Shown: piece by piece, positions 4,182-63,945 of the stretch
Layout of the letters: every line of letters begins with the position of its first letter
Position numbering within the stretch: the first letter of the stretch is position 1
Source: a virus
Lineage: Duplodnaviria; Caudoviricetes
Strand: one strand, 5' to 3'
Virus record (IMG/VR): IMGVR_UViG_3300001199_000006
Location: 12,561 to 76,560 of that record
DNA: 64,000 nucleotides
Program-made: the position numbers and the translations under genes
The notes under the pieces: model-generated
Seen by the model: the letters and a program-made list of their open reading frames with translations, nothing else
What the model was told of the DNA's origin: nothing
Databases searched by the model: none

Positions 4182-4196
4182 TTGACACGGTGTCAA
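4182..4196. repeat. Dispersed palindrome copy 1 (TTGACACGGTGTCAA)
   Basis: Intergenic, upstream of the secreted-protein gene. Confidence 0.9.
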
Positions 4197-4294
4197 ACGC
4201 AACACGATCTCCGGATCTCGCCTGAGCGCGCGCATTCATCAAACCCTATCCCGGCGTGTAGAAAGCCGCAATAGGGTTTCCCCGGAAGTGCGAG

Positions 4295-4870
4295 CTAACC
4301 CGCCAGGAGCGCGTGGGAAGCCGCGTAGACGCGGTTTCGACCTTGCCGCTTGGCCGCGTACAGCGCTTGGTCGGCACGGCGCAGCGTGTGCGCTGCCGCG
4401 CCTGGGGCCAGCTCCGCCACTCCGGCACTGATCGTCACGGCACGTCCGAGGTCAGGAATCACCGAGGCTTCCAGGCGCTCGCGCAAACGCTCCGCGACCT
4501 GCGCGGCCTCTGTCTCGGGCGCACCCGGGCACAGCACGATGAACTCCTCACCGCCCCACCGGCACACTTCGTCGCTCGCGCGCACGCCAAGGACGAAGAG
4601 CTGCGCGGCCGACCGTAGCACTACGTCACCGACGTCGTGCCCGTGAGTGTCGTTGACCAACTTGAAGTGGTCGATGTCGAGCAGGATCACGGACGTGCGT
4701 CGATCGGCGCGCGCTTCTTGCGCGAGCCGCTCCTCGACGAAGCGCCGGTTCCACAACCCGGTCAGCGGATCGGTGCGCAACGCCCTGGAGAGCGCGATCA
4801 CCTCCGACCGTAGACGATCGACTTCCAGCACGAGCTGCGTCCGCGACAGATCATCAGGCTGCATGTTCAT
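4295..4870 (-). CDS. Diguanylate cyclase (stand-alone GGDEF domain)
   Basis: TDPLTGLWNRR, ILLDIDHFKLVNDTHGHDVGD, RASD-x5-GGEEF, TISAGVA, ADQALYAAKRQGRNRV. Confidence 0.95.
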   Translation of the reverse strand: MNMQPDDLSRTQLVLEVDRLRSEVIALSRALRTDPLTGLWNRRFVEERLAQEARADRRTSVILLDIDHFKLVNDTHGHDVGDVVLRSAAQLFVLGVRASDEVCRWGGEEFIVLCPGAPETEAAQVAERLRERLEASVIPDLGRAVTISAGVAELAPGAAAHTLRRADQALYAAKRQGRNRVYAASHALLAG

Positions 4871-4877
4871 GGCTCCA

Positions 4878-5090
4878 TCAGGAAGTTCGACGCACTTCCC
4901 AGCGTTCGCAATCGTCCTGCGACAACTCGACCGGTGACTCGATCACTCCGAACGGGAACTCGCGCGTCTCGGGCAAGTCGAAGCGTGAGCACGTCGAATC
5001 CAAGTAGCCGCGCTTGACCCATGTCCAGGTGAAGCCGCGAGGCCAGCTCGTCGCCGTGGGCGGTCGGTACAGGAGGCCGTAGCGCGTCAC
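4878..5090 (-). CDS. Small protein resembling the DarA C-terminal domain
   Basis: YGLLYRPP...PRGF...FGVIESPVELSQDDCERWEV resembles the YG..RP...P.GF...G.ieY..eL...e...yel pattern; recalled similarity only. Confidence 0.45.
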   Translation of the reverse strand: MTRYGLLYRPPTATSWPRGFTWTWVKRGYLDSTCSRFDLPETREFPFGVIESPVELSQDDCERWEVRRTS

Positions 5091-5692
5091 CGCACGGCTC
5101 CCCCGCACGACGACTCGGTCACGACCACGGCGCTGCCCTTGGTGATGCGCGCGCGTTCGAGTCCCGGGATGTCCGAGGTCCACTGCCCGAGCGTGAAGTT
5201 CGGCAGCACCTCGCCGTCGATCTCAGGATGGTACCGGCGCTGTTCGGGCGCGAGCTGTGCCGCCAGATCCGCCGACATCCAGCCGATCACGAACCACTCG
5301 CCCTCGACGTCGTCGAACTGGTAGTGACGACCAAGCGAGCGCGTCGAGCCCGGGTTCCGGACGTACGACGGCGGGAGCGCACCGGACACGGCGAACCGCT
5401 CTTCGACCGACGCCCGCTCGCCGCGATCGTACGCCGGGCACCCCGGCGACACCGGGCGCGTCAACTTGTAGCGCACGGCCGGATAGACCGTGCGGCCGAT
5501 CGCGAGGTCGAAGACCCCGAGGATCTCGACCTCGGGGATGCGGCGCAGATAGGTGAGCAGCGCGTGGTGGTACGGGTTCATGGCGTGGTTCATCGACGAA
5601 GAAGGATGCGGCACTTGAGCTATAGCGGGGCAAGACAGTTCCGGCACTTGGCAGGCGCGCCGTCGTGCTCGGATGTCAGTGGGCGGCATCAT
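5087..5692 (-). CDS. Hypothetical protein
   Basis: Coupled ORF; start ATG at 5692 overlaps the upstream stop. Confidence 0.65.
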   Translation of the reverse strand: MMPPTDIRARRRACQVPELSCPAIAQVPHPSSSMNHAMNPYHHALLTYLRRIPEVEILGVFDLAIGRTVYPAVRYKLTRPVSPGCPAYDRGERASVEERFAVSGALPPSYVRNPGSTRSLGRHYQFDDVEGEWFVIGWMSADLAAQLAPEQRRYHPEIDGEVLPNFTLGQWTSDIPGLERARITKGSAVVVTESSCGGAVR

Positions 5693-6161: not shown

Positions 6162-6168
6162 GGGCGAG

Positions 6169-6394: not shown

Positions 6395-7900
6395 TCATGC
6401 ACTCTCTCCTGGTTTGCGCACCTTGACCATGATGGTCGAGACCCCGGTCCCCGCCTCCTCGAACGCGCCGTCCGGGAGTTTCTCGATCTCGGCCTTGTGC
6501 TCGGCCAGGAACTTCGTGAGCACGCCGTAGCGGCCGTCCCGGCGCGTCGCGGCGCTCGCCGACATCACCGAGACCAGCACGCCGCCCGGCTTCACGAAGC
6601 GCCAGGCGCGGAGAACGTGCTCGACCTCCTGCGCGCCAGCGAACGGCGGGTTCATCACGACGGCGTCGTAGGACCCGAACTCCACGGGCAAGGCGGTGAA
6701 GAAGTCCAAGGGCAGGACCGTCACGCCGGGCTCGCCCTCTTGCTCGACACGCCGCGCCAGGTGTCCGAGCATCTCGATCCCGTGCGGATCGTTCTCGACC
6801 GCCGTGATGTCGCGGACCCGAGCGCGCAAGAGCGCGCGCACGATCGCGCCCTCCCCGGCCGAGGGCTCCAGGACGCGCGAGTGTGTGTCGAGGTGGGCGG
6901 CTTCGACCAGCTTGTCCGCGACCTCGGCGGGTGTGTAGAAGGCTTGACGCGCCTGCTTCTCGGTCCGGGCCAATGCGAAGGTCGTCGGACGCCGTGCTTC
7001 CTGCGCCTGCTTCTCGGCCGCAGCCCCGCGCGGCGGCGGGAGCGCGCCCGGGTAGCGCCGCGCCATGATGAGGTTCATAGCATCGACGTGCTCGGGGTTG
7101 GTGATGCGGACGTGCGTCGTGCCGACTCGGAATATCTTGATCCGCATCAGTGGCTCGGCGTCGGGGCCGAGCGGGCTCGGGACGTCGATCCACTTCCCGA
7201 ACGGGATGGGCCCAAGCCATCGCAGCCCGACGCCGTGCCCGGACGGCGGGAGCCCCGCGAGCAGGCAGAGCACGCGTTCGAGGTCGTGCAGGCTCTCGTG
7301 ACTGGACAGCGAAGCCGTGTCACCTTGGAGCGAGCGCGGGTGCAGGTAGAACGCGTGGTTCACGATGAGCTTCTCGCCGATGCGCGTGGGCTCGTTCGTG
7401 CGGTGTTCCCAGGAGAGCGAGCGATAGACGGCCTCGACGCAGCGCTCGAAGTATTCACCACGCTGGGCGTGTACGGCCGCGATCGTGGCCTCGATGTTCT
7501 CTCGCGTCAGCGCGGGCAAGTCGGCGGGCGCGTGCTTGGTGAACCGCGCGAAGCCCCTGGACCGGTGCAGTTGCTCGAACAGTTCACCGCGCGTCTTGTG
7601 GTCCATGATCGTGTCGATCTGCGTCAACACGTACAGGCGGAGCCAGAAGTGACGGTCGATCTCCTGCTCGATCGCCGTGGCGTTGCGCGGGTCCTGGATG
7701 TCGGCGGGGTTCCCGTCGGGGAAGTGAACGCTGACACGCGGCAGCTCGACTCCGAACACGCCGACCTGCTCCTTGGCTTGGTCGAGTAGTCGCACCGACT
7801 CCTTGAAGGCCGCTTGCGCCGCGTCGCGCGCGGCGAGCAGGGCCTCGATGCTGACGGCCGAGATGATGGACGCGGCTCCGGGTGCTTGTGCAGTGGTCAT
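6395..7900 (-). CDS. DUF4942 domain fused to C-terminal N6-adenine-type DNA methyltransferase
   Basis: DUF4942-like SIEALL...RTNEPTRIGEKLIV...LHDLERVLCLLAG...MNLIMARRYPGALP; then FYTP, VLEPSAGEG (SAM motif I) and VVMNPPF (motif IV). Confidence 0.85.
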   Translation of the reverse strand: MTTAQAPGAASIISAVSIEALLAARDAAQAAFKESVRLLDQAKEQVGVFGVELPRVSVHFPDGNPADIQDPRNATAIEQEIDRHFWLRLYVLTQIDTIMDHKTRGELFEQLHRSRGFARFTKHAPADLPALTRENIEATIAAVHAQRGEYFERCVEAVYRSLSWEHRTNEPTRIGEKLIVNHAFYLHPRSLQGDTASLSSHESLHDLERVLCLLAGLPPSGHGVGLRWLGPIPFGKWIDVPSPLGPDAEPLMRIKIFRVGTTHVRITNPEHVDAMNLIMARRYPGALPPPRGAAAEKQAQEARRPTTFALARTEKQARQAFYTPAEVADKLVEAAHLDTHSRVLEPSAGEGAIVRALLRARVRDITAVENDPHGIEMLGHLARRVEQEGEPGVTVLPLDFFTALPVEFGSYDAVVMNPPFAGAQEVEHVLRAWRFVKPGGVLVSVMSASAATRRDGRYGVLTKFLAEHKAEIEKLPDGAFEEAGTGVSTIMVKVRKPGESA

Positions 7901-9742: not shown

Positions 9743-9802
9743 GCCCGCCTCTTCGGCAAGCGTACCGCCCGAGCTTGAGCGAATCCGGGTGGAAAGCGTT
9801 TC
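9743..9802 (-). promoter_or_regulatory. Early-gene upstream motif A
   Basis: GAAACGCTTTCC-N11-CTCAAG-N17-CCGAAGAGGCGGGC-ATG; near-identical to motifs at 40.1-40.3 kb. Confidence 0.65.
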
Positions 9803-11064
9803 TAGGGCGGGAAGATCGAGTTGAGCCAGGCCCGATGCAACTCGATCTCGTACTGGATCGAGGGGTCAGTGGAGTCGATCAGGTCCACGAGTTCGAGCGG
9901 ATCTGACACGGTGTCAAAGAACCACTCCTGCACGGACGGGACACTCGTCGGCGTCCCGGTGCGCCGGAACTTGTACCGTGGCGAGACGGCCGCGATGTCG
10001 GCGGGGAGCGGATTGTCTCCGCGCGTCCCGCACACCACGTAGCTGTGGATCTGCTGGGCTTGGCCCAGGGCCAAGGGCATGAGCGACATCGAAGGGCTCG
10101 ACAGCGGAACGGTCCGCCCGTACCGCTCCGCGATCGTCGCGTAGATGTCCACGGCATGCACGAGCGCGGGGCTCGTCTGTCCCGACGGGATACCTGCACC
10201 GGCCACGATCAGCGGCACGTCGATGCCCCGCCAGAACGTCGTGGTCTTGGCGCGCTGCGTGCCCGCGACGTCGCGAGGCGTGCCGTTGTCGCCGATGATG
10301 ATGAGCAAGTCGTCCGGCGTCAGCAGCGGGAGCATCGCCCCGACTTGCGTGTCGAGCGCGACGATCATAGCCTCGTACTTGTCGCGATCGGTCGGCGTGT
10401 CAGGGTAGCCGTTGGGCAGCCACAGTGCGTCGGGCCGGTGGAACGGGTCATGCGCGAGCTGGGCCGAATAGACCGCGAGCTTCGGTCCCGGCGTGCTCGT
10501 CCACCAGTAGTACCAGCGCGTGAACATCACGGTCGGTTGGTACTTGTTCGACGTGCTCTGCACGCCGTCCTCGACTCGCACCCAATCCCAATACGAAGTC
10601 CCGCCGCAGGTCGTGACGTTCCCGCCCGGGATCACGCCGCGATAGACCGAGTACCCGTGCTCACCGGGCGCGCGCTGCCAGTCGTTCAAGCTGTTGGGGT
10701 TCGCGCCCTCGTGCCACTTGCCGAAGAAGCCCGGTGACACGCCGACCGGCGACACCAGATCGGCGAGCGAGATGAGCGACGACGGCGGTGTGCGGTTCGT
10801 CGGGATGTAACAGACCTTGTCGGTCGGAGCGACGCGCCATCCGCCGAAGTCGATCGCGTACCGCGTCGGCATGCACGTCGGCGACGCCTTTGCGTTGGTG
10901 AACTTGATCCCGTAGTCCGCGACCCTCTTGATGTTCGGGCAGCGCCCATCCGCCATCAGCTCTTCGAGGTCGATCTCACCGACGTCGTCGAGGATGAACA
11001 CGATCGTGTCTTGCGCGCGCAACGTCGGCGCGAGCAACAACAGCAAGGTCAGCAGCATCTTCAT
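9802..11064 (-). CDS. Secreted Cys-type (formylglycine-dependent) sulfatase
   Basis: Signal peptide; IVFILDDVG, CMPTR (CxPxR), GKWH, HDPFH, GDNG, K.T...GIDVPLIV. Confidence 0.88.
   Translation of the reverse strand: MKMLLTLLLLLAPTLRAQDTIVFILDDVGEIDLEELMADGRCPNIKRVADYGIKFTNAKASPTCMPTRYAIDFGGWRVAPTDKVCYIPTNRTPPSSLISLADLVSPVGVSPGFFGKWHEGANPNSLNDWQRAPGEHGYSVYRGVIPGGNVTTCGGTSYWDWVRVEDGVQSTSNKYQPTVMFTRWYYWWTSTPGPKLAVYSAQLAHDPFHRPDALWLPNGYPDTPTDRDKYEAMIVALDTQVGAMLPLLTPDDLLIIIGDNGTPRDVAGTQRAKTTTFWRGIDVPLIVAGAGIPSGQTSPALVHAVDIYATIAERYGRTVPLSSPSMSLMPLALGQAQQIHSYVVCGTRGDNPLPADIAAVSPRYKFRRTGTPTSVPSVQEWFFDTVSDPLELVDLIDSTDPSIQYEIELHRAWLNSIFPP
9904..9916. repeat. Dispersed palindrome copy 2
   Basis: TGACACGGTGTCA inside the sulfatase CDS (FDTVSD). 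Confidence 0.9.
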
Positions 11065-17637: not shown

Positions 17638-19161
17638 TCACGCTTCCTCCTTGGCCGCGACGGTCTCGCGACGCAGCGCCGGGCGGAGCTTGGGTTCCTG
17701 CACGAGCAGGAGCGCGAGCTGCGCACCGAGCCGGGTCAACGCCTCGTGGTAGCCGTGCGCCAGGTGATCGTCGCACCACTCGTGCCCCAGCTCATGCAGG
17801 AGCAGCTCGACGTGCTCGATGCGAAGACCTTCCGCCCCGTCCTCAAACCAGCGGTGCCCGAGCACTTGCAAGTTGAGCGTGAGGAAACCGCCGCGCCCGT
17901 ACCACGCTGCGAAGCGGTTCGCGTTGTCGCGCACGATGCGGATCGAGAGTCCGGTGCGATCGCGCAGGAGGGCTTGGCCGATCAGCTTGAAGCTGACGCA
18001 CACCACCTTTTGCGCGTCGGTCCATCTCTCGAACGGCACCTCGGTGTCGATGCCGTCCGGCGAGAACCTCGGGTGCTTGGTCGGCGTGACCTGTCCCGCC
18101 GCCTTCATCGCGCCGGTCTCGCGCACGCGCTCCCACGTCTCGGCCGGGAGTGCGCCGCCCGGGACCACGGTGTAGCCCTCGGACGCCGCGCGCTTGCTCG
18201 CCTCGGGATCCGACGGGTCGTAGGTGACGCGCCGCTTCCCGAACCGCTCGTCCAGCACGTTTGACACCGTGTCAGGCGCGGCCTCGGCCAGGGCCTCCGT
18301 CACCCACTCCTCGCGTGCCTCCTCGGCCGTGAGCAGCTTGTGCGCCGCGTCCAGGACGGCGACGCGCAGCCGCTTGAGGAACGCGGGCCGCACGTTCTCG
18401 CGGTCGAGCGTGAGCGGGATCTTCTGCTTGACGTTGATCCCGAACGGGCCGTCGATCGCGACGACCGGGATGCCCATCTCGTACAGCTTCGAGCCCGAGC
18501 CGTGCCGCCACACCTCGATCGCGGTCTCGCGCTCGACCAGGCGCAGGTTCCCCTCCTCGTCGGCCAGCTCGGTCTGGAGCTTAGCACGCAGCACGAGGTC
18601 GGGCGCGCCGTGCAGGTCGTTCAACACGTAGGTGACGCCGCCATCCCCACAGCGCGTCAGCACGGTGGTGCGGATGTGCGTGGGCGGGATCAGGTTGCGC
18701 AAATCCTCCGCGACTTCGTCCAGCTCGGCCCGTGTCATCGGCATGATCGCGGTCAGCACGGTTCCGCGCTGGGTCGCGGCCTTCGACGTCGTGCGCGAGC
18801 CGTCGGCGTGGAACATCACGGTGCCCGTGGTGCTCACGATCTCGGCCTCGCGGCAGCGCGCGAGGAACAGCTTCTCACCCGCGTTGAATCGCCCACGCGT
18901 CTCGGCCAGGCCCTTCTTCCGGGACGCCGCGAAGAGCGTGTAGCTCTCGGCCAGGTTGGCGAAGCCGTTCGGTGCGTCGTCCATGACCGCGATCTCCACC
19001 CGGGGCTGCCCAGGGAGCGCAGTGATCGAAATCGCGACCTTGGTCACGCCCGGCTCGTCCCAGGCGTTCGAGATCAGCTCGGCGATCGCCCGGGCCTTCG
19101 TCTGACGACCGAGCACCTGGGCCAGGCCGTCCTTGTCCACCTCGAACCATGCCTTCGTCAT
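17638..19161 (-). CDS. GHKL (HSP90/MutL-like) ATPase with C-terminal HExxH motif
   Basis: ELISNAWD (N box), DDAPNGF (G1), RGRFNAGEK (G2), GT; C-terminal LLHELGH...HL...YH. Confidence 0.8.
   Translation of the reverse strand: MTKAWFEVDKDGLAQVLGRQTKARAIAELISNAWDEPGVTKVAISITALPGQPRVEIAVMDDAPNGFANLAESYTLFAASRKKGLAETRGRFNAGEKLFLARCREAEIVSTTGTVMFHADGSRTTSKAATQRGTVLTAIMPMTRAELDEVAEDLRNLIPPTHIRTTVLTRCGDGGVTYVLNDLHGAPDLVLRAKLQTELADEEGNLRLVERETAIEVWRHGSGSKLYEMGIPVVAIDGPFGINVKQKIPLTLDRENVRPAFLKRLRVAVLDAAHKLLTAEEAREEWVTEALAEAAPDTVSNVLDERFGKRRVTYDPSDPEASKRAASEGYTVVPGGALPAETWERVRETGAMKAAGQVTPTKHPRFSPDGIDTEVPFERWTDAQKVVCVSFKLIGQALLRDRTGLSIRIVRDNANRFAAWYGRGGFLTLNLQVLGHRWFEDGAEGLRIEHVELLLHELGHEWCDDHLAHGYHEALTRLGAQLALLLVQEPKLRPALRRETVAAKEEA
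18262..18274. repeat. Dispersed palindrome copy 3
   Basis: TGACACCGTGTCA inside the GHKL CDS (PDTVSN). Confidence 0.9.
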
Positions 19162-27623: not shown

Positions 27624-28016
27624 TCAGGCCGACGCCGAGTAGGTGAAGGAGTTGATGCGGACGGCGTCGCCCGAGTTGATCGTGGTCGAGGACAGGTTCA
27701 TGTCCGCGCCCGAGGTGCTGACCGTGCCACGGAACACCTCGTTGTTGTCACGGTCGCGGCAACGGAACGACGCTGCCGTACCGCCACCGGCCGCGTTCGA
27801 GTCCTCGCGCGGCGCGCTGTTCATCGTGGCCGTGCCACCCGACGCCGTGCCGAAGGCAGGAGGCGTCGCGAACAGGATCGTCGCGAGGATCGTGGTGAAG
27901 GCGGTGGACGTGGCGATCTGGAGGTCGCCAGAGGCGTCGGTCGTACCGGCGTCGATCGCATCGACGACGAGGTCGGCAAGGGAGTTCCGGATCGCGGTGA
28001 CGTGCGTGAGGGCCAT
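27624..28016 (-). CDS. Small tail-fibre-associated structural protein
   Basis: RNSLADLVVDAIDAG...AFGTASGG...GTAASFR...GADMNLSSTTINSGDAVRINSFT. Confidence 0.75.
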   Translation of the reverse strand: MALTHVTAIRNSLADLVVDAIDAGTTDASGDLQIATSTAFTTILATILFATPPAFGTASGGTATMNSAPREDSNAAGGGTAASFRCRDRDNNEVFRGTVSTSGADMNLSSTTINSGDAVRINSFTYSASA

Positions 28017-28113: not shown

Positions 28114-28126
28114 TGACACCGTGTCA
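28114..28126. repeat. Dispersed palindrome copy 4
   Basis: TTTGACACCGTGTCA, intergenic. Confidence 0.9.
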
Positions 28127-30207: not shown

Positions 30208-30239
30208 GGGGCCTCCGGTGAAAGGGGGACGATCTGGAA

Positions 30240-30270
30240 AGACTGCCGCGCGCATCCCTCCGCGTCTACA
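30240..30270 (-). promoter_or_regulatory. Late-type promoter motif
   Basis: TGTAGAC-N18-CAGTCT upstream of the gene at 30207. Confidence 0.55.
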
Positions 30271-33301: not shown

Positions 33302-33318
33302 TTTGACACCGTGTCAAA
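33302..33318. repeat. Dispersed palindrome copy 5 (TTTGACACCGTGTCAAA, 17-bp perfect)
   Basis: Spans the stop of 33314-34906 and abuts the start at 33301. Confidence 0.9.
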
Positions 33319-38495: not shown

Positions 38496-38702
38496 TCACA
38501 CCCGCTCGACGACGAAGCCGTCCAAGACGAAACGCGCGAAGCGCACGGAGCCACCGTTCAACTGCGCCGTATACGGCTCGACCGGAAGCTCGATGGGTAG
38601 CGACGCTGGAAGCGGGGAGGGCCTGAAACGCGCCGACGCGAACGCCGTGACCAACAGCCCGAACAGAGAGCGGCGCGTGAGCCCTCGATGAGGGTTTGAC
38701 AT
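38496..38702 (-). CDS. Small protein with twin-arginine-like signal
   Basis: MSNPHRGLTRRSLFGLLVTAFASA. Confidence 0.5.
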   Translation of the reverse strand: MSNPHRGLTRRSLFGLLVTAFASARFRPSPLPASLPIELPVEPYTAQLNGGSVRFARFVLDGFVVERV

Positions 38703-38710
38703 GGTGTCAA
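38696..38710. repeat. Dispersed palindrome copy 6 (one mismatch, TTGACATGGTGTCAA)
   Basis: Overlaps the ATG at 38700-38702. Confidence 0.8.
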
Positions 38711-38725
38711 GCATACGCCGGAGCG

Positions 38726-39172
38726 TCAGCTACGCAAGAGGCGGCGGCGCTCGCGCTGATAACGCCGATGCCGTGCGCGGTACTTCGCGGTTCGACGCGC
38801 CCGGCGCTCGCGCACTGCCTTGCACCAGCGGCACTGCCTCTCACGGCGACGCCCGGGGCGTTGGCGGTAGAGCGGGCGAATCCACGGATGCCCGGCCGCG
38901 CACGCCGGGAGCGGCTTCGAGCGCGTCGCCTCGACTCGCCAATGCGCGGGGTTGACGCAAGCGTGCCGTCCACAGACGTTCTCGATCCGCCGCGCCCCGA
39001 GCGGTTCGATCAGCGCCTCCCAGAAGACACGGTGCGCCACCTGTCGCCGACCCTGTACCTGTACCCGGACGTAGCCGGACTCGTTGCAAGGCCGCATCGG
39101 CAAGGTCCAACAGCCGTCAGCGTGCTCTCGCACACGGGCGCGCACCGCCTCGAAGGTCTGCGCCGCAGGCAT
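38726..39172 (-). CDS. HNH-like endonuclease, possibly degenerate
   Basis: CW...GY....AHRV.W...ENVC....CVNPAHW; then C..GH...R.C..C. Confidence 0.7.
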   Translation of the reverse strand: MPAAQTFEAVRARVREHADGCWTLPMRPCNESGYVRVQVQGRRQVAHRVFWEALIEPLGARRIENVCGRHACVNPAHWRVEATRSKPLPACAAGHPWIRPLYRQRPGRRRERQCRWCKAVRERRARRTAKYRARHRRYQRERRRLLRS

Positions 39173-39498
39173 CAGCGCTTGACGCCGCGTCGCATGAAAT
39201 CGCGCGCGCTGTCCTCAGTCGCGTTGTATTGGCGCACACCCTTGCGCGCCAGGCGGACGAGACGAGGGATCTCCTCGGCGTCGTACAGCTCAGCGTCGCC
39301 CATGACGATCCAACCGGCCTTGAGGTTGAGGGCACGCGCGTGCCGGTATCGCGCCCGCCCAACACCGCGCATGGCGTGAAACCGCCACGCCACCTGGCCG
39401 TCGCTCCACAGCGCTACGGTCTTGCCGTCCGCCGTCTGACGACGGGCGACTTCGTGATCCGCGTGAGCGCCGCACGAGCAAGTGGGAGGATGGAGCAT
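39172..39498 (-). CDS. Hypothetical protein
   Basis: MLHPPTCSCG...; stop overlaps the HNH start. Confidence 0.55.
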   Translation of the reverse strand: MLHPPTCSCGAHADHEVARRQTADGKTVALWSDGQVAWRFHAMRGVGRARYRHARALNLKAGWIVMGDAELYDAEEIPRLVRLARKGVRQYNATEDSARDFMRRGVKR

Positions 39499-39506
39499 GT
39501 TCAGGT

Positions 39507-40142
39507 TCAGGTGGTCTTCGGGGCAGGCGAGGTGTGCTTGCGGAAGAGGCCGTTCTTCGTGACCGACACGACGAGCTGGCAGCCCGGGCACTCCGCATAG
39601 CGCCGGCACTGACCCGAGAACTTCCCGCTGTTCGGGCAGAGCGTTGCGGCCTCGGCGGCTTCGCGAGCTTCACGCAGCGCCTTGGCGCGGAGGAAATCGG
39701 GGTGCGTCTGAACCTCTGGGAAGCACACGGCGCAGGCCGCGTCTCCGTGAGCCTGCACCATCGCGCTCTCGTCACAGTCGGCCAGGTTCACGAGCCATCC
39801 GAACTGCGTGTTCCAGTGACAGGTCGAACAGCTCCGTTCGCGATGTACGTGGCCGCCGGGCACCAGGTAGTAACGCCTCCACCCGCCGCGTCGCGCGAAC
39901 TCGTTCTCGAACGGGGTCATCTCGTCCTGGATCGCCTTGCGCTCGGCACGGACCTTGGCCCACGCGGCCTCGATCTCTTCCAAGCTCTGCCCATACAGCT
40001 TCCGCCCGTCGCGCGCGTCCATCACACGCTGCTCGTACTGGCTCTCACGCATGCGCGTCCGGAAGAAGCGCTCGTAGATCGCGGCGAGCTGGGTGTCGAT
40101 CTCACACGGGGTCTGCTCGGTCAAGGGCTTGGTCTCGCTCAT
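39507..40142 (-). CDS. Conserved phage Zn-binding protein
   Basis: GWRRYYLV.GGHVH...CSTC...TQFGWL...AC.VCFP. Confidence 0.75.
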   Translation of the reverse strand: MSETKPLTEQTPCEIDTQLAAIYERFFRTRMRESQYEQRVMDARDGRKLYGQSLEEIEAAWAKVRAERKAIQDEMTPFENEFARRGGWRRYYLVPGGHVHRERSCSTCHWNTQFGWLVNLADCDESAMVQAHGDAACAVCFPEVQTHPDFLRAKALREAREAAEAATLCPNSGKFSGQCRRYAECPGCQLVVSVTKNGLFRKHTSPAPKTT

Positions 40143-40264
40143 GCCCGCCTCTTCGACCACGGTACCACCGGGTCTTGAGGGAAAGCGTTTCCGACCGAAG
40201 AAAGTGCTCGCGCGGTCCGGTTTTCGCCTCAAGGTCGCGGTACGCCCTGGCCGAAGAAGTGGGC
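40143..40264. promoter_or_regulatory. Divergent early-gene upstream motifs B and C
   Basis: Minus: GAAACGCTTTCC-CTCAAG-N17-TCGAAGAGGCGGGC-ATG; plus: CTCAAG(40228)-N17-CCGAAGAAGTGGGC-ATG. Confidence 0.65.
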
Positions 40265-40591
40265 ATGAGCAACGCCAAGTTCACCGAGACGTCCACTCCG
40301 GCGGTCATGCGCTTCGCCTACGACAGCGGCGCGCAGTGGAAGGTTAGCCCGCACGGTCCCGACGACCCGGACCGAGACGCTGTCTGGTGTGACTCACGCA
40401 CCGAAGCGGATCGTGTCGCCGCGTGCGAACGATACCGGAACGCGGTCGCAGAGCTGACCAAGGCTCAAGAACGCCTCCGCACCGCCGTGCAGCACATCGA
40501 CACGTACGAATCGAGGTACGCGGTCGAGCGTTTGAAGCGCGAGGTCGAGGCCGCGCGCGAAGCACTGCCGGAAGACCTCAAGACGCGTTAG
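40265..40591 (+). CDS. Hypothetical protein
   Basis: MSNAKFTETS...; C-terminal coiled coil. Confidence 0.6.
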   Translation: MSNAKFTETSTPAVMRFAYDSGAQWKVSPHGPDDPDRDAVWCDSRTEADRVAACERYRNAVAELTKAQERLRTAVQHIDTYESRYAVERLKREVEAAREALPEDLKTR

Positions 40592-40621
40592 GCCCAGAGC
40601 CGACACACAAGCACGGAGGAC

Positions 40622-40927
40622 ATGACCATGCACGACCGAGCCCTGATCCTGAAAACACACGCGCCCAGGCCGGGCGACTCCTACCTGGTGCCGCGCTTCC
40701 TGGTGGTGGACACCGACGCGGACGAGGTGGTCGCGGGCTTCTTCACGATCGAGGAAGCCGTGGACCGGTATCCGAACGCCCAGCCGACCGAGCAGTTCCT
40801 CGCCGACGAAGATCGCCACGTCGCGTACCTGGTCGCGCGTGAGAACGGCCTGCGCCGCAGCCGCGAGTTCCTGACCAAGACCCTGCCCGAGCGCGTGCGC
40901 GCGCTCACGACCTCGGAGCCCTTCTGA
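40622..40927 (+). CDS. Hypothetical protein
   Basis: GGAGG RBS, 101 aa. Confidence 0.7.
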   Translation: MTMHDRALILKTHAPRPGDSYLVPRFLVVDTDADEVVAGFFTIEEAVDRYPNAQPTEQFLADEDRHVAYLVARENGLRRSREFLTKTLPERVRALTTSEPF

Positions 40928-41280
40928 TGAACGCCCAGCACGAAGAGATCCTGATCCAAGGCTTCAAGGACGCGGCGCGCGCGGCCGAAGAAGCGGCGCG
41001 TAGCTCGCTGGAAGACGGCGGGGCCTGCAACTTCGACACGCCCGCCTTCCGCGTCGATCGCGTGTCGAACGGCAAGTTCCGCGCGCTCGTCGCACCCTCG
41101 GGCCTGACCGTCTCGGAGTTCACCTGGCGCGGGGGCAAGAAGTGGCTGTGGTTGAACCTGCCCAGCTACGGTCAGGGAAACCGACGCACGCGCGCCAGCC
41201 AGGCTGCCGTCAACGTGCTCGAACGCCTCGTCACGCAAGTGCCGGGGCTCCGCGTCTTCCACTACATGCAAATGGACTGA
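40927..41280 (+). CDS. Hypothetical phage protein
   Basis: EDGGACNFD...YGQGNRRTR; TGATG coupling. Confidence 0.7.
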   Translation: MNAQHEEILIQGFKDAARAAEEAARSSLEDGGACNFDTPAFRVDRVSNGKFRALVAPSGLTVSEFTWRGGKKWLWLNLPSYGQGNRRTRASQAAVNVLERLVTQVPGLRVFHYMQMD

Positions 41281-41283
41281 CCC

Positions 41284-41712
41284 ATGCTCAACCTGATCGC
41301 ACTCATCCTGTTCGCGTTCTTCGGCAGCGCCCTGACCACACTCGGCGGCCTCACGCTCGTCGAGTACGGGCCGAACCCGTCAAGTCGTTACGCGCTCGCG
41401 TACGGGCTGACCGCGCTGGCTTTCGTGGCGGTGTTGGCGTCGGGACGTACCCGCATCGACAGCCTGTTCCCGCGCTGGAGCCTGCGCGAAGGGCTGGGGT
41501 ACGGCGCGTTGACCACGGGCGTGCTGTGCCTGTTTTTCGACAACTACGCCGCAGCGTCGTGCGCGTTCGTGTTGTGCCTGATCGTGCGACATCAGCCGAT
41601 CAGGATCACGCCGCCGTCGATGCGCGTGGTCGATCCGCCGAGCAATTCGACCAGCGAACCGGCGTCGATCCGGATGGTCGGCGCGGACAGCTCGATTCGC
41701 GAAGTCGCTTGA
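41284..41712 (+). CDS. Integral membrane protein
   Basis: Three to four hydrophobic segments; 3' end overlaps the spike gene. Confidence 0.6.
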   Translation: MLNLIALILFAFFGSALTTLGGLTLVEYGPNPSSRYALAYGLTALAFVAVLASGRTRIDSLFPRWSLREGLGYGALTTGVLCLFFDNYAAASCAFVLCLIVRHQPIRITPPSMRVVDPPSNSTSEPASIRMVGADSSIREVA

Positions 41713-54314: not shown

Positions 54315-54512
54315 CTAACGGCGGCGGGCGGAGCGCTTGGCCTTCTTCATGGCGGCGTCGTACGCCTCCTTCTCGTCGGTCTTCTGCTTGAGCAGGCGGC
54401 GGGAGCGCGCGAACAGCTCATCCAGCGTCATCTGATCCACGTCGCTTTGGGTGTAGCCGTTGCCGTGATACACCAGGAAGAACTGGTTCGTCTCGATCGT
54501 CTCGCGGTCCAC
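54315..54512 (-). CDS. Baseplate hub assembly chaperone (T4 gp51-like)
   Basis: NQFFLVYHGNGYTQSDVDQMTLDEL...LLKQK..EKE; GTG start with GGAG 8 nt upstream. Confidence 0.65.
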   Translation of the reverse strand: MDRETIETNQFFLVYHGNGYTQSDVDQMTLDELFARSRRLLKQKTDEKEAYDAAMKKAKRSARRR

Positions 54513-55260
54513 GACCAGTGCTCCGTGGGCGAAAGAACTCCGCCGTGAACGGCATGCCGATCTGGTTCGTTTCACCGCAAGTGTTGCAGTCGAGGTAGAG
54601 GCGCGTGTCGATCCCGGTCTCGGCCTCGGACACCGCGTCTTCGAGCAGCACGAGATCCCCGGCCGTCAACCCCTCGATGAAGCGATTGCGCTCCAGCGGG
54701 TTCTTGAACTCCTCGCCGTCCTTGGAGACGAGCTGGATCGCCAGGCGTTGCAGGTAGCTGGGGTCGGTGTTGTCGTTGCTGGCCATCGCGATGCGCTTCG
54801 CGTTCCGCGCCACGACTTCTTCGTCGGTGCCGCGCAGGAAGCGCATGTGGACGACGCACTTGGCGTCCGGCAGTTCGACCTCGACGGGCTCGCGCGTCTC
54901 CGCTGAGCCTGCCTTCTCGTCCAGCTCCTTCACGATGTCGATCGTGGCGTTCTGCCACAGACCGCAACGGCACCGCCATCGGAACGTGTAGGTAGAGCCG
55001 AAGGTCTTGGTGCGAAGCGCGAGCAAGACGGAGAAGCGGTCCGTGAGCAGCAGCTCCTTGTGCTTGATGCCGTCGGGCAGGCGGCAACAAGTGTCGATGA
55101 GCGCGTCGATCTTGCCGAGGTTGCCCCCGCCTTGCGTGACCAACAGCGCTTGCTGCTTCGCGGTCATCGGTCGGATCTGCACCTTGCCGCCAGGCAAGCG
55201 ATCCTCGTAAAGCACCCCGCGCGAGGGGAGCACGTAGTCGGTCCAACCGAGTTCGGCCAT
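54418..55260 (-). CDS. Baseplate hub assembly protein (T4 gp26-like)
   Basis: LPSRG..Y....V.IRPMTAK....L...LL..DR...LLALR...G..Y...C.C...C..CG...P....FFRP. Confidence 0.75.
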   Translation of the reverse strand: MAELGWTDYVLPSRGVLYEDRLPGGKVQIRPMTAKQQALLVTQGGGNLGKIDALIDTCCRLPDGIKHKELLLTDRFSVLLALRTKTFGSTYTFRWRCRCGLWQNATIDIVKELDEKAGSAETREPVEVELPDAKCVVHMRFLRGTDEEVVARNAKRIAMASNDNTDPSYLQRLAIQLVSKDGEEFKNPLERNRFIEGLTAGDLVLLEDAVSEAETGIDTRLYLDCNTCGETNQIGMPFTAEFFRPRSTGRGPRDDRDEPVLPGVSRQRLHPKRRGSDDAG

Positions 55261-55300
55261 GAGAAGGTCTCCAGCGTTGCCAGAGGGAGGAGGATGGAAC

Positions 55301-55333
55301 CTCCCCGACTTGACACCGTGTCAAATCGGGGAG
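55301..55333. repeat. Dispersed palindrome copy 7 inside a 33-bp inverted repeat
   Basis: CTCCCCGAcTTGACAC-C-GTGTCAAaTCGGGGAG, one mismatch, intergenic after the tail tube gene. Confidence 0.9.
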
Positions 55334-55342
55334 GGTGCGGGC

Positions 55343-55876
55343 CTACGCCGCGAGGTCGGCGGGCTTGAAGATCGCCTTGTCGATCACGATGTTGCAGGTG
55401 ATGCGCACGCGATCGTCCGTCTCCATGTCGATGTCGCCGGGGTCGAACGTGGAGATCCACATGCCCTGCATCTCCCACTCGCGGTCGCCCGTGCCGTCCG
55501 GCGCGTACAGCACCATGCGCCCGTTCTTCTTGTATTGGGACGCGAAGGCGGTCTTGCCCGTCACCGGGTTGTGCGCGAGGTAGAACCAGTTCGCCAGCAC
55601 GGTCTTCGTGGTCTGGTCCACGTAGTCGTTGAACACGATGCTGAGATCGTCGTACGTGGGCTTGCCCGCGAACTTGCGGGTCTGGTTCAGGTACATGATC
55701 TCGATCGGGTTGATGTTCGACTTGGGCAGCGGGAACGACGTCAGCGACAGCGTCACGACGTCGTTCTCGTTCCCGGCGAGACCCGCGATGTAGAGCAGGC
55801 CGTTGTTGGCGCGCTGCGGCTCGAAGCCGCCGCCGACCTGTCCGATGTGGTCAGCGGTCAGAGTGTCGATGGGCAT
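55343..55876 (-). CDS. Tail tube protein (T4 gp19-like)
   Basis: FEPQR.NN...LP...I...YLN..RKFAGKP.YDD..I.F.DY...YKK...L..P.G...W...G.W. Confidence 0.85.
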   Translation of the reverse strand: MPIDTLTADHIGQVGGGFEPQRANNGLLYIAGLAGNENDVVTLSLTSFPLPKSNINPIEIMYLNQTRKFAGKPTYDDLSIVFNDYVDQTTKTVLANWFYLAHNPVTGKTAFASQYKKNGRMVLYAPDGTGDREWEMQGMWISTFDPGDIDMETDDRVRITCNIVIDKAIFKPADLAA

Positions 55877-61731: not shown

Positions 61732-62318
61732 CAGCGCACCACGATCCTTCCACGAAGGTGACGCGACGCCTGGAGTGCGGCCTTGATCTCGCCGACCAGC
61801 CGCGCGCGCGTGCTCCGATACTTGGACTTCATCGAGCGCAGGTGAGGTCTCCAGTGCGGGCGCGGAGGCAGGCGGCCGTCGAGGGAGCCGTGCTCGTTGA
61901 AGATCGCGACCTTGTTCAGCGACGTGTCCGTGATACGCCCTTCCAGGTCGCGAGCCATGACGCGCGGGTGGAAGCCGACGCGCACCAGCGTGCGCTCGCG
62001 ACGCTGCCGCGCCTTGCGCGTCCAGACCTTGATGTGGTCGCGGTACCAGCCCGTCGCGATCATCGTGCGTAGGTCAGCCCCGGCCCGCTCCTTGCGCCGC
62101 AGCCACGCGGGCGAGAGGTTGGTCCCGGACTCCGGGTACAGCACCTCTTGGAAGCTGGGGAACGCCTGTAGTTCGATCTTCTCGACGAAGGCGTCGCGCT
62201 CCTCCTCGGCGTACCGCTTGACGCCCTCGAACAGCGTCGTGCGCGCGACATCCCGGACCTCGCGCGACATCGCGCGGAAGTCAGGGACGTGCGAGCGAGT
62301 CGGTTTGCGACGCGGCAT
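61731..62318 (-). CDS. Virion morphogenesis/tail completion protein
   Basis: LSPAWL.RK...RTMIATG...A.FNEHGS...LPPRPHWRP. Confidence 0.7.
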   Translation of the reverse strand: MPRRKPTRSHVPDFRAMSREVRDVARTTLFEGVKRYAEEERDAFVEKIELQAFPSFQEVLYPESGTNLSPAWLRRKERAGADLRTMIATGWYRDHIKVWTRKARQRRERTLVRVGFHPRVMARDLEGRITDTSLNKVAIFNEHGSLDGRLPPRPHWRPHLRSMKSKYRSTRARLVGEIKAALQASRHLRGRIVVR

Positions 62319-62331
62319 TGGAATGGCTTTC

Positions 62332-63102
62332 CTATTCCGTGATGGGGCCGAGCGGAGCACGCCGACGCTCCAACTGCTCTTCGAGCCGCTCCTTCTCCTG
62401 CTGGGCTTCTTGAAGCAGCTCGGTGTGGTCCACGGGGTCCTGCGCGCCGTCGGGGTTGGTGATGCCTTGGAACTTGCCGCGCACACGCCCCAGGATCTCC
62501 TTGGCACAGGCCGTCGTGTACCGCAGGATCCAGTCCACGTCGCCGTTCGGGATGAGCTGCATCCCGTTGCCCGTGTTGAAGTCCGACGCGTAGTACCCGG
62601 ACCACTCGTACCCGACCTCCACGTCCGGGCGCACGATGTCCACGTACAGCACGAACTGCGCGCCCTCCCACTGCCCGTCCCATTCCGGCTCCGAGTCCAC
62701 GATGCGCGCGGCGTCCTCGGAGTACGTGATGCGCTGGAGCAAGTCGCCGAACGTCTCGCCCGATCCCTGCCCGAGCGTCACGCCCGCGAGCGCGGTGTCG
62801 AACGGATCGAAGGGATCGACGGCCGAGGGCTGCGTGCGCCGCGTGATGAACTCGACGTGAATAATCCCGGCGAATCCCGGATGCAGGTTCAACGGGAGCA
62901 CGTACCGCTTCTGCGCCGTCGAGACGTTGGCCAGCTTGTTCCGCCGCTTGAACGGACGGCGCTGGTTGTAGAAGTCCAGCGCTTGCTTCACGCACTCCAC
63001 GTAGTCGTCCTGCTCCAGCTCGATCTGAATGGTCTTCCCTCCAAGGCGCGATTCGACGCGCTTGGCGATCTTCTCCATCGAGACGAGTTCGCTGTTCGGC
63101 AC
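62332..63102 (-). CDS. Neck protein (T4 gp13-like)
   Basis: IQIELEQDD....V..AL.FY...WI.RYT.A.AKEILG.VRGKF...D...LL.EA..EKE.L...L. Confidence 0.85.
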   Translation of the reverse strand: MPNSELVSMEKIAKRVESRLGGKTIQIELEQDDYVECVKQALDFYNQRRPFKRRNKLANVSTAQKRYVLPLNLHPGFAGIIHVEFITRRTQPSAVDPFDPFDTALAGVTLGQGSGETFGDLLQRITYSEDAARIVDSEPEWDGQWEGAQFVLYVDIVRPDVEVGYEWSGYYASDFNTGNGMQLIPNGDVDWILRYTTACAKEILGRVRGKFQGITNPDGAQDPVDHTELLQEAQQEKERLEEQLERRRAPLGPITE

Positions 63103-63105
63103 GGC

Positions 63106-63945
63106 TTACTTCTGGCGCTTCAAGTTGACCGGCGGATCCTTCACGACGCGCTCGCCCAGCGTCTTCGGCTTGCGCGACTTGGCCTTCTTGGGCGGCTCGA
63201 TCTTGGTCGGATTTGACACCGTGTCACCCATGACCACGGACGTCTCGCCGTCGGTGGCACCGGTCGAGAGCTTGGCCTCGGGCGTGGTCGCCGCCTCGGC
63301 GAGCGCTTGTTGACGCTCCAGGAACGACAGCACGTTCCGGCGCAGGTGCGGAACCGCGTGCGGGTGCATGCCCGGGATCTTGAGCAGCTCCTCATCGGTC
63401 AGCGCCTTGAACTTCTCCGCCGAGTCGATGCCGCGCGACTCCATGAACTCGACGATGCTGACGCGTAGCTGCTCGGGCATCGGCCCGGGCGCGTTCGTCG
63501 GCGGCAGCACGTTCCGGTTGGCCGGGATGTCGTCCACTTCCTCGTCCTCGCCGGTGAGCGGGTTCTTGCGCCGGATCTTGCCCTCCGGGGTAATCACGTC
63601 CCCAGCAGCGCGAAAGCGTCCCGGAGCTGCCGCAGCCGCGACTTGAGCACGCGGCGCACCGCTCGTGAGCACTGCACCGTCATCCGAACGCCCGTCGAGG
63701 TGATGGACCGGGAGATCCGGAAAGGAATCGCGTCCGAAGCTCTTCGGGATCGGAAACCGATGCAGCGGGCCAGCCTGACTCATGTACCGGGCCCAGAACT
63801 CACCCTCGACGACGTAGACGGCGTCGGTGCGCCGCGTGCGCTCGTCGAGCGTCTCGCGGAAGGGGTGGATGATCGAGGTCTGTCCGTGCGGGTTCTGCAC
63901 GTAGACCGGAACCTTGCCGAGGTTGACGTAACGCTGGAGAGCCAT
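63106..63945 (-). CDS. Hypothetical protein with helix-hairpin-helix-like segment
   Basis: GIDSAEKF.AL.DEELLKIPGM; Lys/Pro-rich C-terminus. Confidence 0.65.
   Translation of the reverse strand: MALQRYVNLGKVPVYVQNPHGQTSIIHPFRETLDERTRRTDAVYVVEGEFWARYMSQAGPLHRFPIPKSFGRDSFPDLPVHHLDGRSDDGAVLTSGAPRAQVAAAAAPGRFRAAGDVITPEGKIRRKNPLTGEDEEVDDIPANRNVLPPTNAPGPMPEQLRVSIVEFMESRGIDSAEKFKALTDEELLKIPGMHPHAVPHLRRNVLSFLERQQALAEAATTPEAKLSTGATDGETSVVMGDTVSNPTKIEPPKKAKSRKPKTLGERVVKDPPVNLKRQK
63214..63226. repeat. Dispersed palindrome copy 8
   Basis: TTTGACACCGTGTCA inside the CDS (GDTVSN). Confidence 0.9.

What the first reader, a model, noticed from the sequence alone, without database searches (positions are those of the whole stretch)
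4182..63226. A 13-15 bp palindrome (T)TTGACACCGTGTCA dispersed across the whole window: candidate phage genome-marking system
Seen: exact TGACAC-N-GTGTCA at 4183, 9904, 18262, 28114, 33304, 55311 and 63214, plus a one-mismatch copy at 38697. Spacing is mostly 5-10 kb, with one 16.6-kb gap. Most copies carry an extra TT on one side. Three copies lie inside unrelated CDSs, all read as D-T-V-S and all use the AT-rich TCA Ser codon, which suggests selection on the DNA rather than the protein. Others sit on a stop codon, on a start codon or between genes. By my rough calculation at about 2/3 GC, fewer than 0.01 copies are expected in 64 kb. Inference: a site for a dimeric DNA-binding protein that ignores gene boundaries and spans both early and late modules. 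That fits a parS/matS-like segregation or organisation site, a stoperator-like roadblock, or a self-mark, better than an ordinary operator. I do not recognise the sequence as a described site. Each arm also contains TTGACA, the sigma70 -35 consensus.
Basis: partly seen in the sequence, partly recalled or inferred. Interest (0 to 1): 0.88.

Follow-up and report, generated by a model that had tools for sequence, protein, structure and literature searches.

The report
Evenly spaced palindromes marking a phage genome
A 15-bp palindrome recurs about every 7 kb along this uncultured 150-kb-class phage, its relatives carry their own versions at the same density, and the likeliest reader is a ParB-type DNA clamp that every complete relative encodes, which would put loading sites along the whole genome.

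Summary
The window holds 7 exact copies and one 1-mismatch copy of TGACAC-S-GTGTCA, against 0.18 expected. The whole 76.5-kb contig has 10 copies, and the full form is TTGACAC-S-GTGTCAA.

- **Family trait.** Seven related IMG/VR phage contigs (35-60% aa identity, collinear) each carry 12-50 copies of their own variant of a GACAC-N-GTGTC core.
- **Placement.** Sites are strongly intergenic, so they do not ignore gene boundaries. Their orientation is unrelated to transcription. Some keep their position between genomes.
- **Spacing.** Sites are far more evenly spaced than chance (CV 0.4-0.54 against about 0.95; P<0.0002 in four genomes).
- **What they are not.** In this phage they are not promoters, terminators or general hairpins.
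- **Candidate binder.** The only DNA-binding protein found in every complete relative is a ParB/Noc-like protein with intact CTP-binding motifs and an HTH, but no ParA. A site lies within 100 nt of its gene in 6 of 6 genomes. The window's contig ends two genes short of where parB should be.

Best reading (about 0.5): parS/KorB-OB-like loading sites for an orphan phage ParB clamp. Binding is inferred, not shown. The closest described analogue is the unexplained 17-bp palindrome of Cluster O mycobacteriophages. The scan noted the same palindrome in an overlapping window of this genome.

The parts
4183..4195 (.). Palindrome copy; the 15-bp form TTGACACGGTGTCAA spans 4182-4196. Intergenic, between the diguanylate-cyclase-like gene (4295-4870, -) and ORF 3466-4152 (-). 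The flanks extend the dyad to about 23 bp with one mismatch.
9904..9916 (.). Palindrome copy inside CDS 9802-11064 (-), 102 nt before its stop. Reads D-T-V-S.
18262..18274 (.). Palindrome copy in the middle of CDS 17638-19161 (-). Reads D-T-V-S next to an indel. The orthologue in G003 has neither the motif nor the peptide.
28114..28126 (.). Palindrome copy, intergenic: 8 nt after the stop of 28135-30255 (-) and 97 nt upstream of the virion protein gene 27624-28016 (-). G003 has a site at the syntenic position (89455).
33304..33316 (.). Palindrome copy whose TCA is the stop codon of the tail gene 33314-34906 (-). It ends 2 nt before the start of 32738-33301 (-).
38697..38709 (.). One-mismatch copy (TGACATGGTGTCA; still TGACA-N3-TGTCA), upstream of 37833-38492 (-). 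G003 has a site at the syntenic position (80224). It borders a block of genes that G003 lacks at this position.
55311..55323 (.). Palindrome copy between the tail tube gene (55343-55876, -) and the baseplate hub gene (54418-55260, -). G003 has a site at the syntenic position (66392).
55300..55334 (-). Extended 16-bp-stem hairpin with the 55311 copy at its tip. It is the only copy whose RNA fold is exceptional (-29.3 kcal/mol, z -5.8). It may double as an attenuator or terminator after the tube gene.
63214..63226 (.). Palindrome copy inside CDS 63106-63945 (-), 108 nt before its stop. Reads D-T-V-S in a variable C-terminal tail.

Best explanation
The palindromes are double-stranded DNA sites for a dimeric phage protein, most likely the orphan ParB-family protein that this phage lineage encodes next to recA/uvsX and gp32. 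That protein has ParB/Noc-type CTP-binding motifs plus an HTH, and no ParA partner. By analogy with ParB-parS, Noc-NBS and KorB-OB, dimers would load at each palindrome, close into clamps and slide or spread a few kb. Sites every 3-9 kb would then put the whole genome within reach of the protein. The purpose could be organisation or compaction of the DNA, telling it apart from host DNA, or long-range silencing.

Shown here: the sites exist, they are selected, they co-vary between genomes, they sit between genes, they are evenly spaced, and they co-occur with parB. Inferred: that ParB is the binder, that it spreads, and what the coating is for. In lower-GC relatives some sites overlap the -35 of sigma70-like promoters, including the parB promoter itself, so repression of those promoters is a likely secondary role.
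For: 1. **Real and selected.** 8 copies against 0.18 expected, and 10 in the contig. In-CDS copies are placed in non-conserved protein segments.
2. **Trait of the lineage, with changing specificity.**
   - G003 (156 kb, complete): 17 copies of CCAG-TGACA-CGC-TGTCA-CTGG.
   - G006 (150 kb): 50 copies of GAY-TGACA-YCG-TGTCA-RTC.
   - G010 and G012: 29-44 copies of TRACAY-N-RTGTYA.
   - G001 and G011: 12 copies of CTGGAC-N5-GTCCAG.
   - G008: 4 copies identical to this window's motif.
3. **Symmetric recognition.** Centre orientation is unrelated to gene direction or genome position. Flanking half-site positions vary independently, with no information outside 19 bp.
4. **Placement.** Intergenic in 15 of 17 G003 sites, against about 18% of the sequence. 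Four G000 sites lie in the same intergenic gaps as G003 sites.
5. **Even spacing.** CV 0.40-0.54 against a null of about 0.95, P<0.0002 in G003, G006, G010 and G012, also when null positions are drawn from intergenic gaps. Largest gaps are significantly small.
6. **ParB.** The protein has the GERR/GHRR and ENxxxxR..L.P.E motifs plus an HTH, and matches Noc and Spo0J structures at E 1e-12 over both domains. It is present in all three complete genomes and in G008, G011, G012, G013 and G014. No ParA was found. HTH_3 and sigma region 4 proteins are not consistently present.
7. **Proximity to parB.** A site lies within 100 nt of parB in 6 of 6 genomes whose motif is known. My rough joint chance is about 0.006.
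8. **No competing ParB sites.** No canonical parS, NBS, OB or matS is present.
9. **Independent parallel.** Corndog, with 34 dispersed 17-bp palindromes (PMC4351075), encodes gp90, which aligns to this ParB over ParB_N plus HTH.
Against: - No binding data of any kind.
- The window's own contig has no parB. Its presence is inferred from synteny, because the contig ends in gp32, and from sister contig G008.
- Only 8 ParB-motif pairs are available, so co-variation of the recognition helix with the site could not be tested statistically.
- Annotation of small proteins is thin, and many have no family, so another conserved binder could have been missed.
- The invariant asymmetric centre in G003 (CGC) and the excess of mixed half-sites in G006 (TCG) are not what a simple homodimer predicts.
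- Canonical parS is an even 16-mer. Only KorB's OB offers an odd 13-bp precedent.
- Regular spacing could partly reflect operon structure.
- The same genomes also encode ParB_N-methyltransferase fusions, which are alternative readers.
Confidence: 0.5

Rival explanations
1. The sites are operators for some other dimeric regulator, either an unannotated phage protein or a host factor. It would switch transcription units on or off, as with phiC31 conserved inverted repeats or P2 Ogr sites. ParB's co-occurrence would be coincidental.
For: - Sites are intergenic and some keep their position.
- In G006, G010 and G012, 10-18% of sites overlap the -35 of TTGACA-N15-17-TAnnnT promoters, 8-18 times the background rate.
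- Each half-site resembles a -35 hexamer.
- Many small proteins have no family assignment.
- The window encodes a PHROG 'transcriptional regulator' (2665-3336, -) and a SpoVG (2090-2488, -).
Against: - There is no fixed geometry relative to starts, stops or promoters. Sites overlap stop codons, start codons or -35 boxes, or lie inside genes.
- None of the 10 G000 sites has a -10 at promoter distance.
- Even spacing over whole genomes is not expected of operators.
- HTH_3 proteins are absent from complete genome G003, which has 17 sites.
- The 2665-3336 protein matched nothing in G006 at E<1e-5.
Confidence: 0.24
2. The element works as a nucleic-acid hairpin or cruciform. It could be an RNA terminator, a processing or stabiliser stem, or a DNA hairpin used for nicking, priming or hairpin-type promoters.
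For: - All variants are palindromes.
- G003 copies form 8-10-bp stems.
- The 55311 copy tops a 16-bp stem with z -5.8.
- Many sites lie 0-40 nt after a stop codon.
Against: - Seven of the 8 window copies fold no better than shuffles, and two do not even use the motif stem.
- The stem is AT-rich in a 66% GC genome and has no U-tract.
- Flank positions in G006 show no compensatory covariation.
- The sequence, not just the pairing, is invariant within each genome.
- Both orientations occur relative to transcription.
Confidence: 0.07
3. The sites are targets of a phage DNA-modifying enzyme, or recombination and mosaic-junction sequences. A modification target would be a self-mark written by the DUF4942 methyltransferase or by the ParB_N-N6/N4 methyltransferase fusions. 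A recombination sequence would be spread and homogenised by gene conversion, in the manner of REP elements.
For: - The lineage encodes several DNA methyltransferases.
- Copies within a genome are near-identical, including the asymmetric centres.
- Several G000 sites border genes that G003 lacks.
- Recombination between repeats was reported for Cluster O (PMC4351075).
Against: - Methyltransferase targets are usually 4-6 bp, and a phage has no obvious reason to enrich and evenly space them.
- No transposase or RAYT-like gene was seen.
- Positional conservation alongside sequence change points to in-place co-evolution with a reader rather than repeated invasion.
Confidence: 0.12

Closest known systems
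KorB-OB of plasmid RK2 (ParB-family CTP clamp; PMC11790492)
   Same: - OB is an odd 13-bp palindrome with an S centre (core TTTAGC-G-GCTAAA).
- It occurs as multiple near-identical copies dispersed over the replicon.
- From memory: some copies overlap promoters and others lie far from any.
   Different: - From memory: RK2 has about a dozen sites on 60 kb, not evenly spaced, and KorB has a ParA partner (IncC) and a co-repressor (KorA).
- Here no ParA was found, there are 10-50 sites per genome, they are evenly spaced, the replicon is a 140-157 kb myovirus, and binding is untested.
Noc-NBS and chromosomal ParB-parS
   Same: - The candidate protein's best structural relatives by sequence are Noc and Spo0J, matched over both the CTPase and HTH domains.
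- Noc also lacks a ParA partner.
- From memory: Noc binds many dispersed palindromes, and the inner CAC/GTG bases of the half-site resemble parS.
   Different: - No canonical parS or NBS is present.
- The site here is an odd palindrome with an extra central base pair.
- From memory: parS sites cluster near the origin.
- The N-terminus here is a Lys/Ala-rich tail, not a membrane-targeting helix or a ParA-binding motif.
Cluster O mycobacteriophage 17-bp repeat TGTTCGG-NNN-CCGAACA (PMC4351075)
   Same: - Invariant inverted arms around a 3-bp, often asymmetric spacer.
- More than 30 copies throughout the genome, with no orientation rule.
- A mix of intergenic and in-gene copies, absent from the host, and of unknown function.
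- The phage encodes a ParB-like protein (gp90) that aligns with the one here.
   Different: - Unrelated sequence and an unrelated siphovirus.
- Corndog sites are clustered rather than evenly spaced (CV 1.06).
- That paper did not link the repeat specifically to the ParB-like protein.
Stoperators of Cluster A mycobacteriophages (PMC9283540, PMC6550527)
   Same: Many copies (dozens, from memory) of a 13-14-bp site spread across the whole phage genome and bound by one phage protein.
   Different: Stoperators are asymmetric, are bound by a monomeric repressor and, from memory, are oriented with transcription. The sites here are dyad-symmetric and orientation-free.

Membership tests
ParB-family loading site (parS / NBS / OB type) | Short, near-invariant palindromic site present in several copies on the replicon | tested here: met
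ParB-family loading site (parS / NBS / OB type) | The same replicon encodes a ParB-fold protein with CTP-binding motifs and an HTH DNA-binding domain | tested here: inconclusive
   Absent from the 76.5-kb contig, which ends two genes short of the syntenic position. Present in sister contig G008, which has the identical motif, and in all complete relatives.
ParB-family loading site (parS / NBS / OB type) | Specific binding of the ParB to the site, with CTP-dependent clamping or spreading | not testable with these tools
   Needs protein-DNA biochemistry or ChIP.
ParABS partition system | A ParA (Walker-type ATPase) partner is encoded with ParB | tested here: not met
   PF13614 was not found in G003, G006, G010, G012 or G000. 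By eye, the translations lack an LG(K/R)GL-type ParA-binding motif.
Stoperator (Cluster A mycobacteriophage) | Asymmetric site whose orientation follows the direction of transcription | tested here: not met
   The site is palindromic and its orientation is mixed.
sigma70-type promoter (-35 TTGACA) | A -10 element (TAnnnT) 15-18 nt downstream, in the direction of the genes | tested here: not met
   0 of 10 in G000, 0 of 4 in G008 and 0 of 17 in G003. Met for 10-18% of sites in G006, G010 and G012.
Intrinsic terminator / structured RNA | A stable stem beyond chance, GC-rich, followed by a U-tract; pairing kept by compensatory changes | tested here: not met
   Only 1 of 8 copies is exceptional. 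No covariation in the flanks.
matS / MatP | GTGACRNYGTCAC consensus | tested here: not met
   No copy in G000, G003 or G008. G003's GTGACA-CGC-TGTCAC has 2 extra base pairs. MatP itself was not searched for.
Cluster O-type dispersed phage palindrome | Invariant inverted arms around a 3-bp spacer, tens of copies genome-wide, orientation-free | tested here: met
   compared with PMC4351075. The spacing pattern differs.

The most novel reading that the evidence does not exclude
A whole lineage of 140-157 kb virulent-type myoviruses keeps an evenly spaced array of 10-50 private loading sites for an orphan ParB-CTP clamp. The entire viral chromosome is then coated or compacted, or marked as self, during infection. 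Site and protein specificities co-evolve from phage to phage. This would be a viral chromosome-organisation or identity system built from the ParB fold, distinct from both partition and classical repression.
Probability: 0.3. Interest if true: 0.85.

Novelty: new variant of a known kind. Interest (0 to 1): 0.68.

Why it matters
ParB-fold CTP switches are now known to do more than partition: Noc, KorB, VirB and BisD are examples. No phage has been shown to use one genome-wide.

Here the comparative data give a concrete, cheap test set: several natural ParB and site pairs with differing specificity, at least six of them with a known motif.

If the link holds, it would explain a class of unexplained dispersed palindromes in phage genomes, those of Cluster O included. 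It would also show how a virus spaces loading sites to cover its chromosome, and it would supply orthogonal clamp and site pairs for synthetic biology.

If it fails, the even spacing and the concerted evolution of the sites still need an explanation.

Tried and rejected
- **Nearest cultured relatives.** Megablast of the first 20 kb of the window against cultured phages found nothing. The tail sheath reaches only 25% identity to cyanomyoviruses, and Pol A about 30% to SPO1-like phages. No cultured relative or literature handle exists.
- **Promoter reading.** Rejected for this phage.
- **Hairpin or terminator reading.** Rejected as a general property.
- **Polarity along the genome** (KOPS- or Chi-like). 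Rejected.
- **Canonical parS, NBS, OB and matS.** Absent.
- **Phage T-dioxygenase-associated ParBs** (PMC13229309). Considered, but those lack a DNA-binding domain, whereas this one has an HTH.
- **G007**, a 9-kb contig with two GTTGACACCGTGTCAAC copies. It shares no proteins with the lineage and was set aside.
- **De novo palindrome search** in 21-kb loci around more distant parB homologues. Too noisy to call motifs.
- **Corndog spacing test.** Its sites are not evenly spaced.
The many 110-157 kb Logan/ENA contigs carrying ParB homologues could therefore not be fetched for a larger co-variation test.
- **Host.** Not identified.


Full report
**1.

One search finds exact TGACACNGTGTCA at 4183, 9904, 18262, 28114, 33304, 55311 and 63214. 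It also finds a one-mismatch copy at 38697. Dinucleotide-preserving shuffles give 0.18 matches on average and never more than 2.

The window is bases 12561-76560 of a 76,560-bp IMG/VR virus contig, here called G000. CheckV rates it 58% complete, and its GC content is about 66%. The part upstream of the window adds two exact copies, so the contig has ten.

Six of the ten are the full 15-bp palindrome TTGACAC-S-GTGTCAA. Nearly all genes lie on the minus strand.

The three copies inside genes all read D-T-V-S. They sit in protein segments that are not conserved in orthologues, one of them next to an indel. That fits selection on the DNA rather than on the protein. The shared frame itself is weak evidence, because TGA closes one of the three frames.

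**2. What kind of phage this is**

- The structural module resembles T4. It has a tail sheath, tube, baseplate wedge and hub. Relatives also have a Gp23-type capsid protein, a prohead protease and a T4-type portal.
- The replication module has a family-A polymerase fused to a UDG-like domain, a DnaB-like helicase, a primase, a gp32-like SSB and a DEAD-box helicase.
- The polymerase is closest to those of SPO1-like phages, at about 30% identity.
- No cultured phage is close.

**3. The palindrome is a trait of a whole lineage, and each genome has its own version**

Collinear relatives from IMG/VR were fetched whole.

| Genome | Size and status | Copies | Motif |
|---|---|---|---|
| G003 | 156 kb, complete; about 50% aa identity to G000 | 17 | CCAG-TGACA-CGC-TGTCA-CTGG |
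| G006 | 150 kb, complete; 35-47% aa identity | 50 | GAY-TGACA-YCG-TGTCA-RTC |
| G010 | 143 kb | 29-33 | TRACAC-W-GTGTYA |
| G012 | 95 kb | 39-44 | TRACAY-W-RTGTYA |
| G001 + G011 | 72 + 74 kb, same sample | 12 | CTGGAC-N5-GTCCAG |
| G002 | 37 kb | 3 | CTGGACAC-T-GTGTCCAG (2 copies); CTGGACGC-T-GTGTCCAG (1) |
| G008 | 24 kb | 4, spaced 5-7.5 kb | identical to this window's motif |

The shared core is GACAC-N-GTGTC. No information lies outside about 19 bp.

**4. Properties that bear on mechanism**

*Placement.* Sites are strongly intergenic. In G003, 15 of 17 are intergenic or on a gene edge, against about 18% of the sequence. In G000 the figure is 6-7 of 10, against about 16%. By my binomial arithmetic these correspond to P of about 1e-9 and 2e-3.

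Many sites sit 0-40 nt after a stop codon, or use their own TGA as that stop. In G012 several supply the ATG of the next gene. The geometry relative to gene features is therefore not fixed.

*Positional conservation.* Four G000 sites lie in the same intergenic gaps as G003 sites. These gaps are upstream of the orthologues of G003 genes 122, 89, 79 and 71. About 1.2 would be expected by chance, so some sites have stayed in place while their sequence changed.

*Orientation.* The orientation of the asymmetric centre or half-sites is unrelated to transcription direction or to genome position.

*No covariation.* In G006 the two flanks vary independently of each other, which argues against a stem.

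*Not promoters here.* No G000, G008 or G003 site has TAnnnT 15-18 nt downstream. In G006, G010 and G012, 10-18% of sites do, which is 8-18 times the background rate. In those genomes the left arm serves as the -35 of sigma70-like promoters.

*Not hairpins in general.* Only the 55311 copy, at the tip of a 16-bp stem after the tail tube gene, folds exceptionally (z -5.8). The other seven window copies fold like shuffles.

*Even spacing.* The coefficient of variation of inter-site distances is 0.40 in G003, 0.54 in G006, 0.51 in G010 and 0.49 in G012. Random positions give about 0.95. This holds whether the null positions are uniform or drawn from intergenic gaps (P<0.0002 each). The largest gaps are also significantly small. 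G000 itself gives a CV of 0.53 (P about 0.05, from ten sites on a fragment).

**5. A candidate reader**

All three complete genomes (G003, G006, G010) encode a 380-435-aa protein with a ParB N-terminal domain followed by an HTH. So do G008, G011, G012, G013 and G014. The gene lies directly after recA/uvsX and gp32.

- The N-terminal domain carries the FNPR, GERR/GHRR and ENxxxxR..L.P.E motifs of ParB CTPases.
- Against solved structures, the best matches are Noc, Spo0J and ParB, matched over both domains at E about 1e-12.
- No ParA-type ATPase is found in any of these genomes.
- The N-termini are Lys/Ala-rich tails with no ParA-binding motif.
- HTH_3 and sigma region 4 proteins are present only patchily.
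- Pfam and PHROG scans of the window's early region found only a SpoVG and one PHROG 'transcriptional regulator'. The latter matched nothing in G006 at E<1e-5.

In all six genomes whose motif is known, a site lies within 100 nt of parB. In G006, G008, G010 and G012 it is upstream and overlaps the parB promoter's -35. In G003 and G011 it is just downstream. My rough joint chance for this is about 0.006.

None of these genomes contains canonical parS, NBS or OB. The only matches to the loose GTGAC-N3-GTCAC pattern are single copies in G006 and G010.

G000 has no parB. Its contig ends inside gp32, and in relatives parB lies two genes further on. Sister contig G008 carries parB together with the identical motif.

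**6. Interpretation**

The data fit best a set of loading sites for an orphan ParB-family clamp, on the model of KorB-OB, Noc-NBS and ParB-parS. KorB is a CTP-dependent sliding clamp that reaches promoters up to 1.5 kb from its odd 13-bp palindrome (PMC11790492).

Sites every 3-9 kb, placed wherever coding constraints allow, would keep the whole genome within sliding range. That accounts for three things together: the even spacing, the indifference to orientation, and the variable geometry relative to genes.

What the coating would do is open. Compaction, discrimination from host DNA, and timed silencing are all possible. Silencing would include autoregulation of parB in the relatives where the site overlaps its promoter.

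Every step from 'ParB binds' onward is inference.

Some facts remain awkward for a simple homodimer. The asymmetric centre is invariant in G003 (CGC). G006 has an excess of mixed half-sites (TCG). The ParB_N-methyltransferase fusions could be alternative readers.

**7. Comparison with what is known**

The closest described case is the 17-bp repeat of Cluster O mycobacteriophages, TGTTCGG-NNN-CCGAACA. Corndog has 34 copies. The arms are invariant, the spacer is asymmetric, and there is no orientation rule. The authors thought a transcriptional role unlikely and left the function open (PMC4351075).

Corndog encodes a ParB-like protein, gp90. It aligns with the present ParB over ParB_N plus HTH (E 5e-4). 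Corndog's sites are clustered rather than evenly spaced.

Stoperators differ in being asymmetric and bound by a monomer (PMC9283540).

A recent survey found orphan ParB-fold proteins to be common on mobile elements, with HTH fusions less frequent in phages than in bacteria (PMC12704722). It did not describe a phage-wide site array.

I therefore class this as a new variant of a known kind.

**8. Limits**

- As a result, neither a larger co-variation test nor any read-level evidence could be obtained.
- The host is unknown.
- Gene calls are my own, based on GC3. They take the longest ORF, which wrongly places a few sites just inside 5' ends.
- The scan's own notes had already recorded the same palindrome in an overlapping window of this genome.

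Noticed in passing
L141-L148 (G006), e.g. G006 108031-107980 on the minus strand: G006 has about 13 composite sigma70-like promoters of the form [TTTCCGC-N5-GCGGAAA]-N6-7-TTGACA-N15-TAnnnT. The upstream inverted repeat is a second conserved palindrome with no U-tract, so it may be an activator site. In 10 of the 13 the -35 is the left arm of the TGACA palindrome.
   Followed up: partly
My loose pattern found 3-4 clear copies, all in the sense orientation.
   Followed up: partly
L150:1653-4793 (-), upstream of the window: The family-A DNA polymerase carries an N-terminal uracil-DNA-glycosylase-superfamily domain. Its nearest relatives are SPO1-like phages, which (from memory) replace thymine with hydroxymethyluracil, so modified or unusual pyrimidines in this DNA are possible.
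   Followed up: no
L014:3576-4859 and L014:7325-8569 (G003); also G010 near 54.3 and 55.7 kb: Relatives carry two paralogous ParB_N-N6/N4 DNA methyltransferase fusions in addition to the HTH-type ParB. The window also has a DUF4942-methyltransferase (6395-7900, -). Their targets are unknown.
   Followed up: partly
window 38710-41590: Site 38697 borders a roughly 2.9-kb block that G003 lacks at this position. The block includes three plus-strand ORFs at 40622-41712. Sites 28114 and 33304 also abut genes with no G003 orthologue, so the sites may coincide with mosaic junctions.
   Followed up: partly
L258-L262 (G012), several sites: [quoted passage not shown] Several proteins there begin M-S-.
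   Followed up: no
window 2090-2488 (-) and 2665-3336 (-): The window encodes a SpoVG-family protein (Pfam E 4e-14). It also encodes a 223-aa protein matching PHROG 323 'transcriptional regulator, D5-like'. The latter has a G003 orthologue, but the blastp at E<1e-5 found no G006 match.
   Followed up: partly
G003 80256, G001 25642, G002 14987, window 38690 region: A conserved CCCCCTACATCGAGGGA leader (CCCTCATCGAGGG in G000) follows the palindrome upstream of different genes in different genomes. It may be a shared ribosome-binding or leader element.
   Followed up: no
L018:12092-12400 (G003 ParB N-terminus); also G011 and G014: The ParB proteins of the high-GC members carry long Lys/Ala/Thr-rich N-terminal tails (AKKKT-type repeats) that resemble histone-H1-like tails. 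These could add non-specific DNA binding.
   Followed up: no
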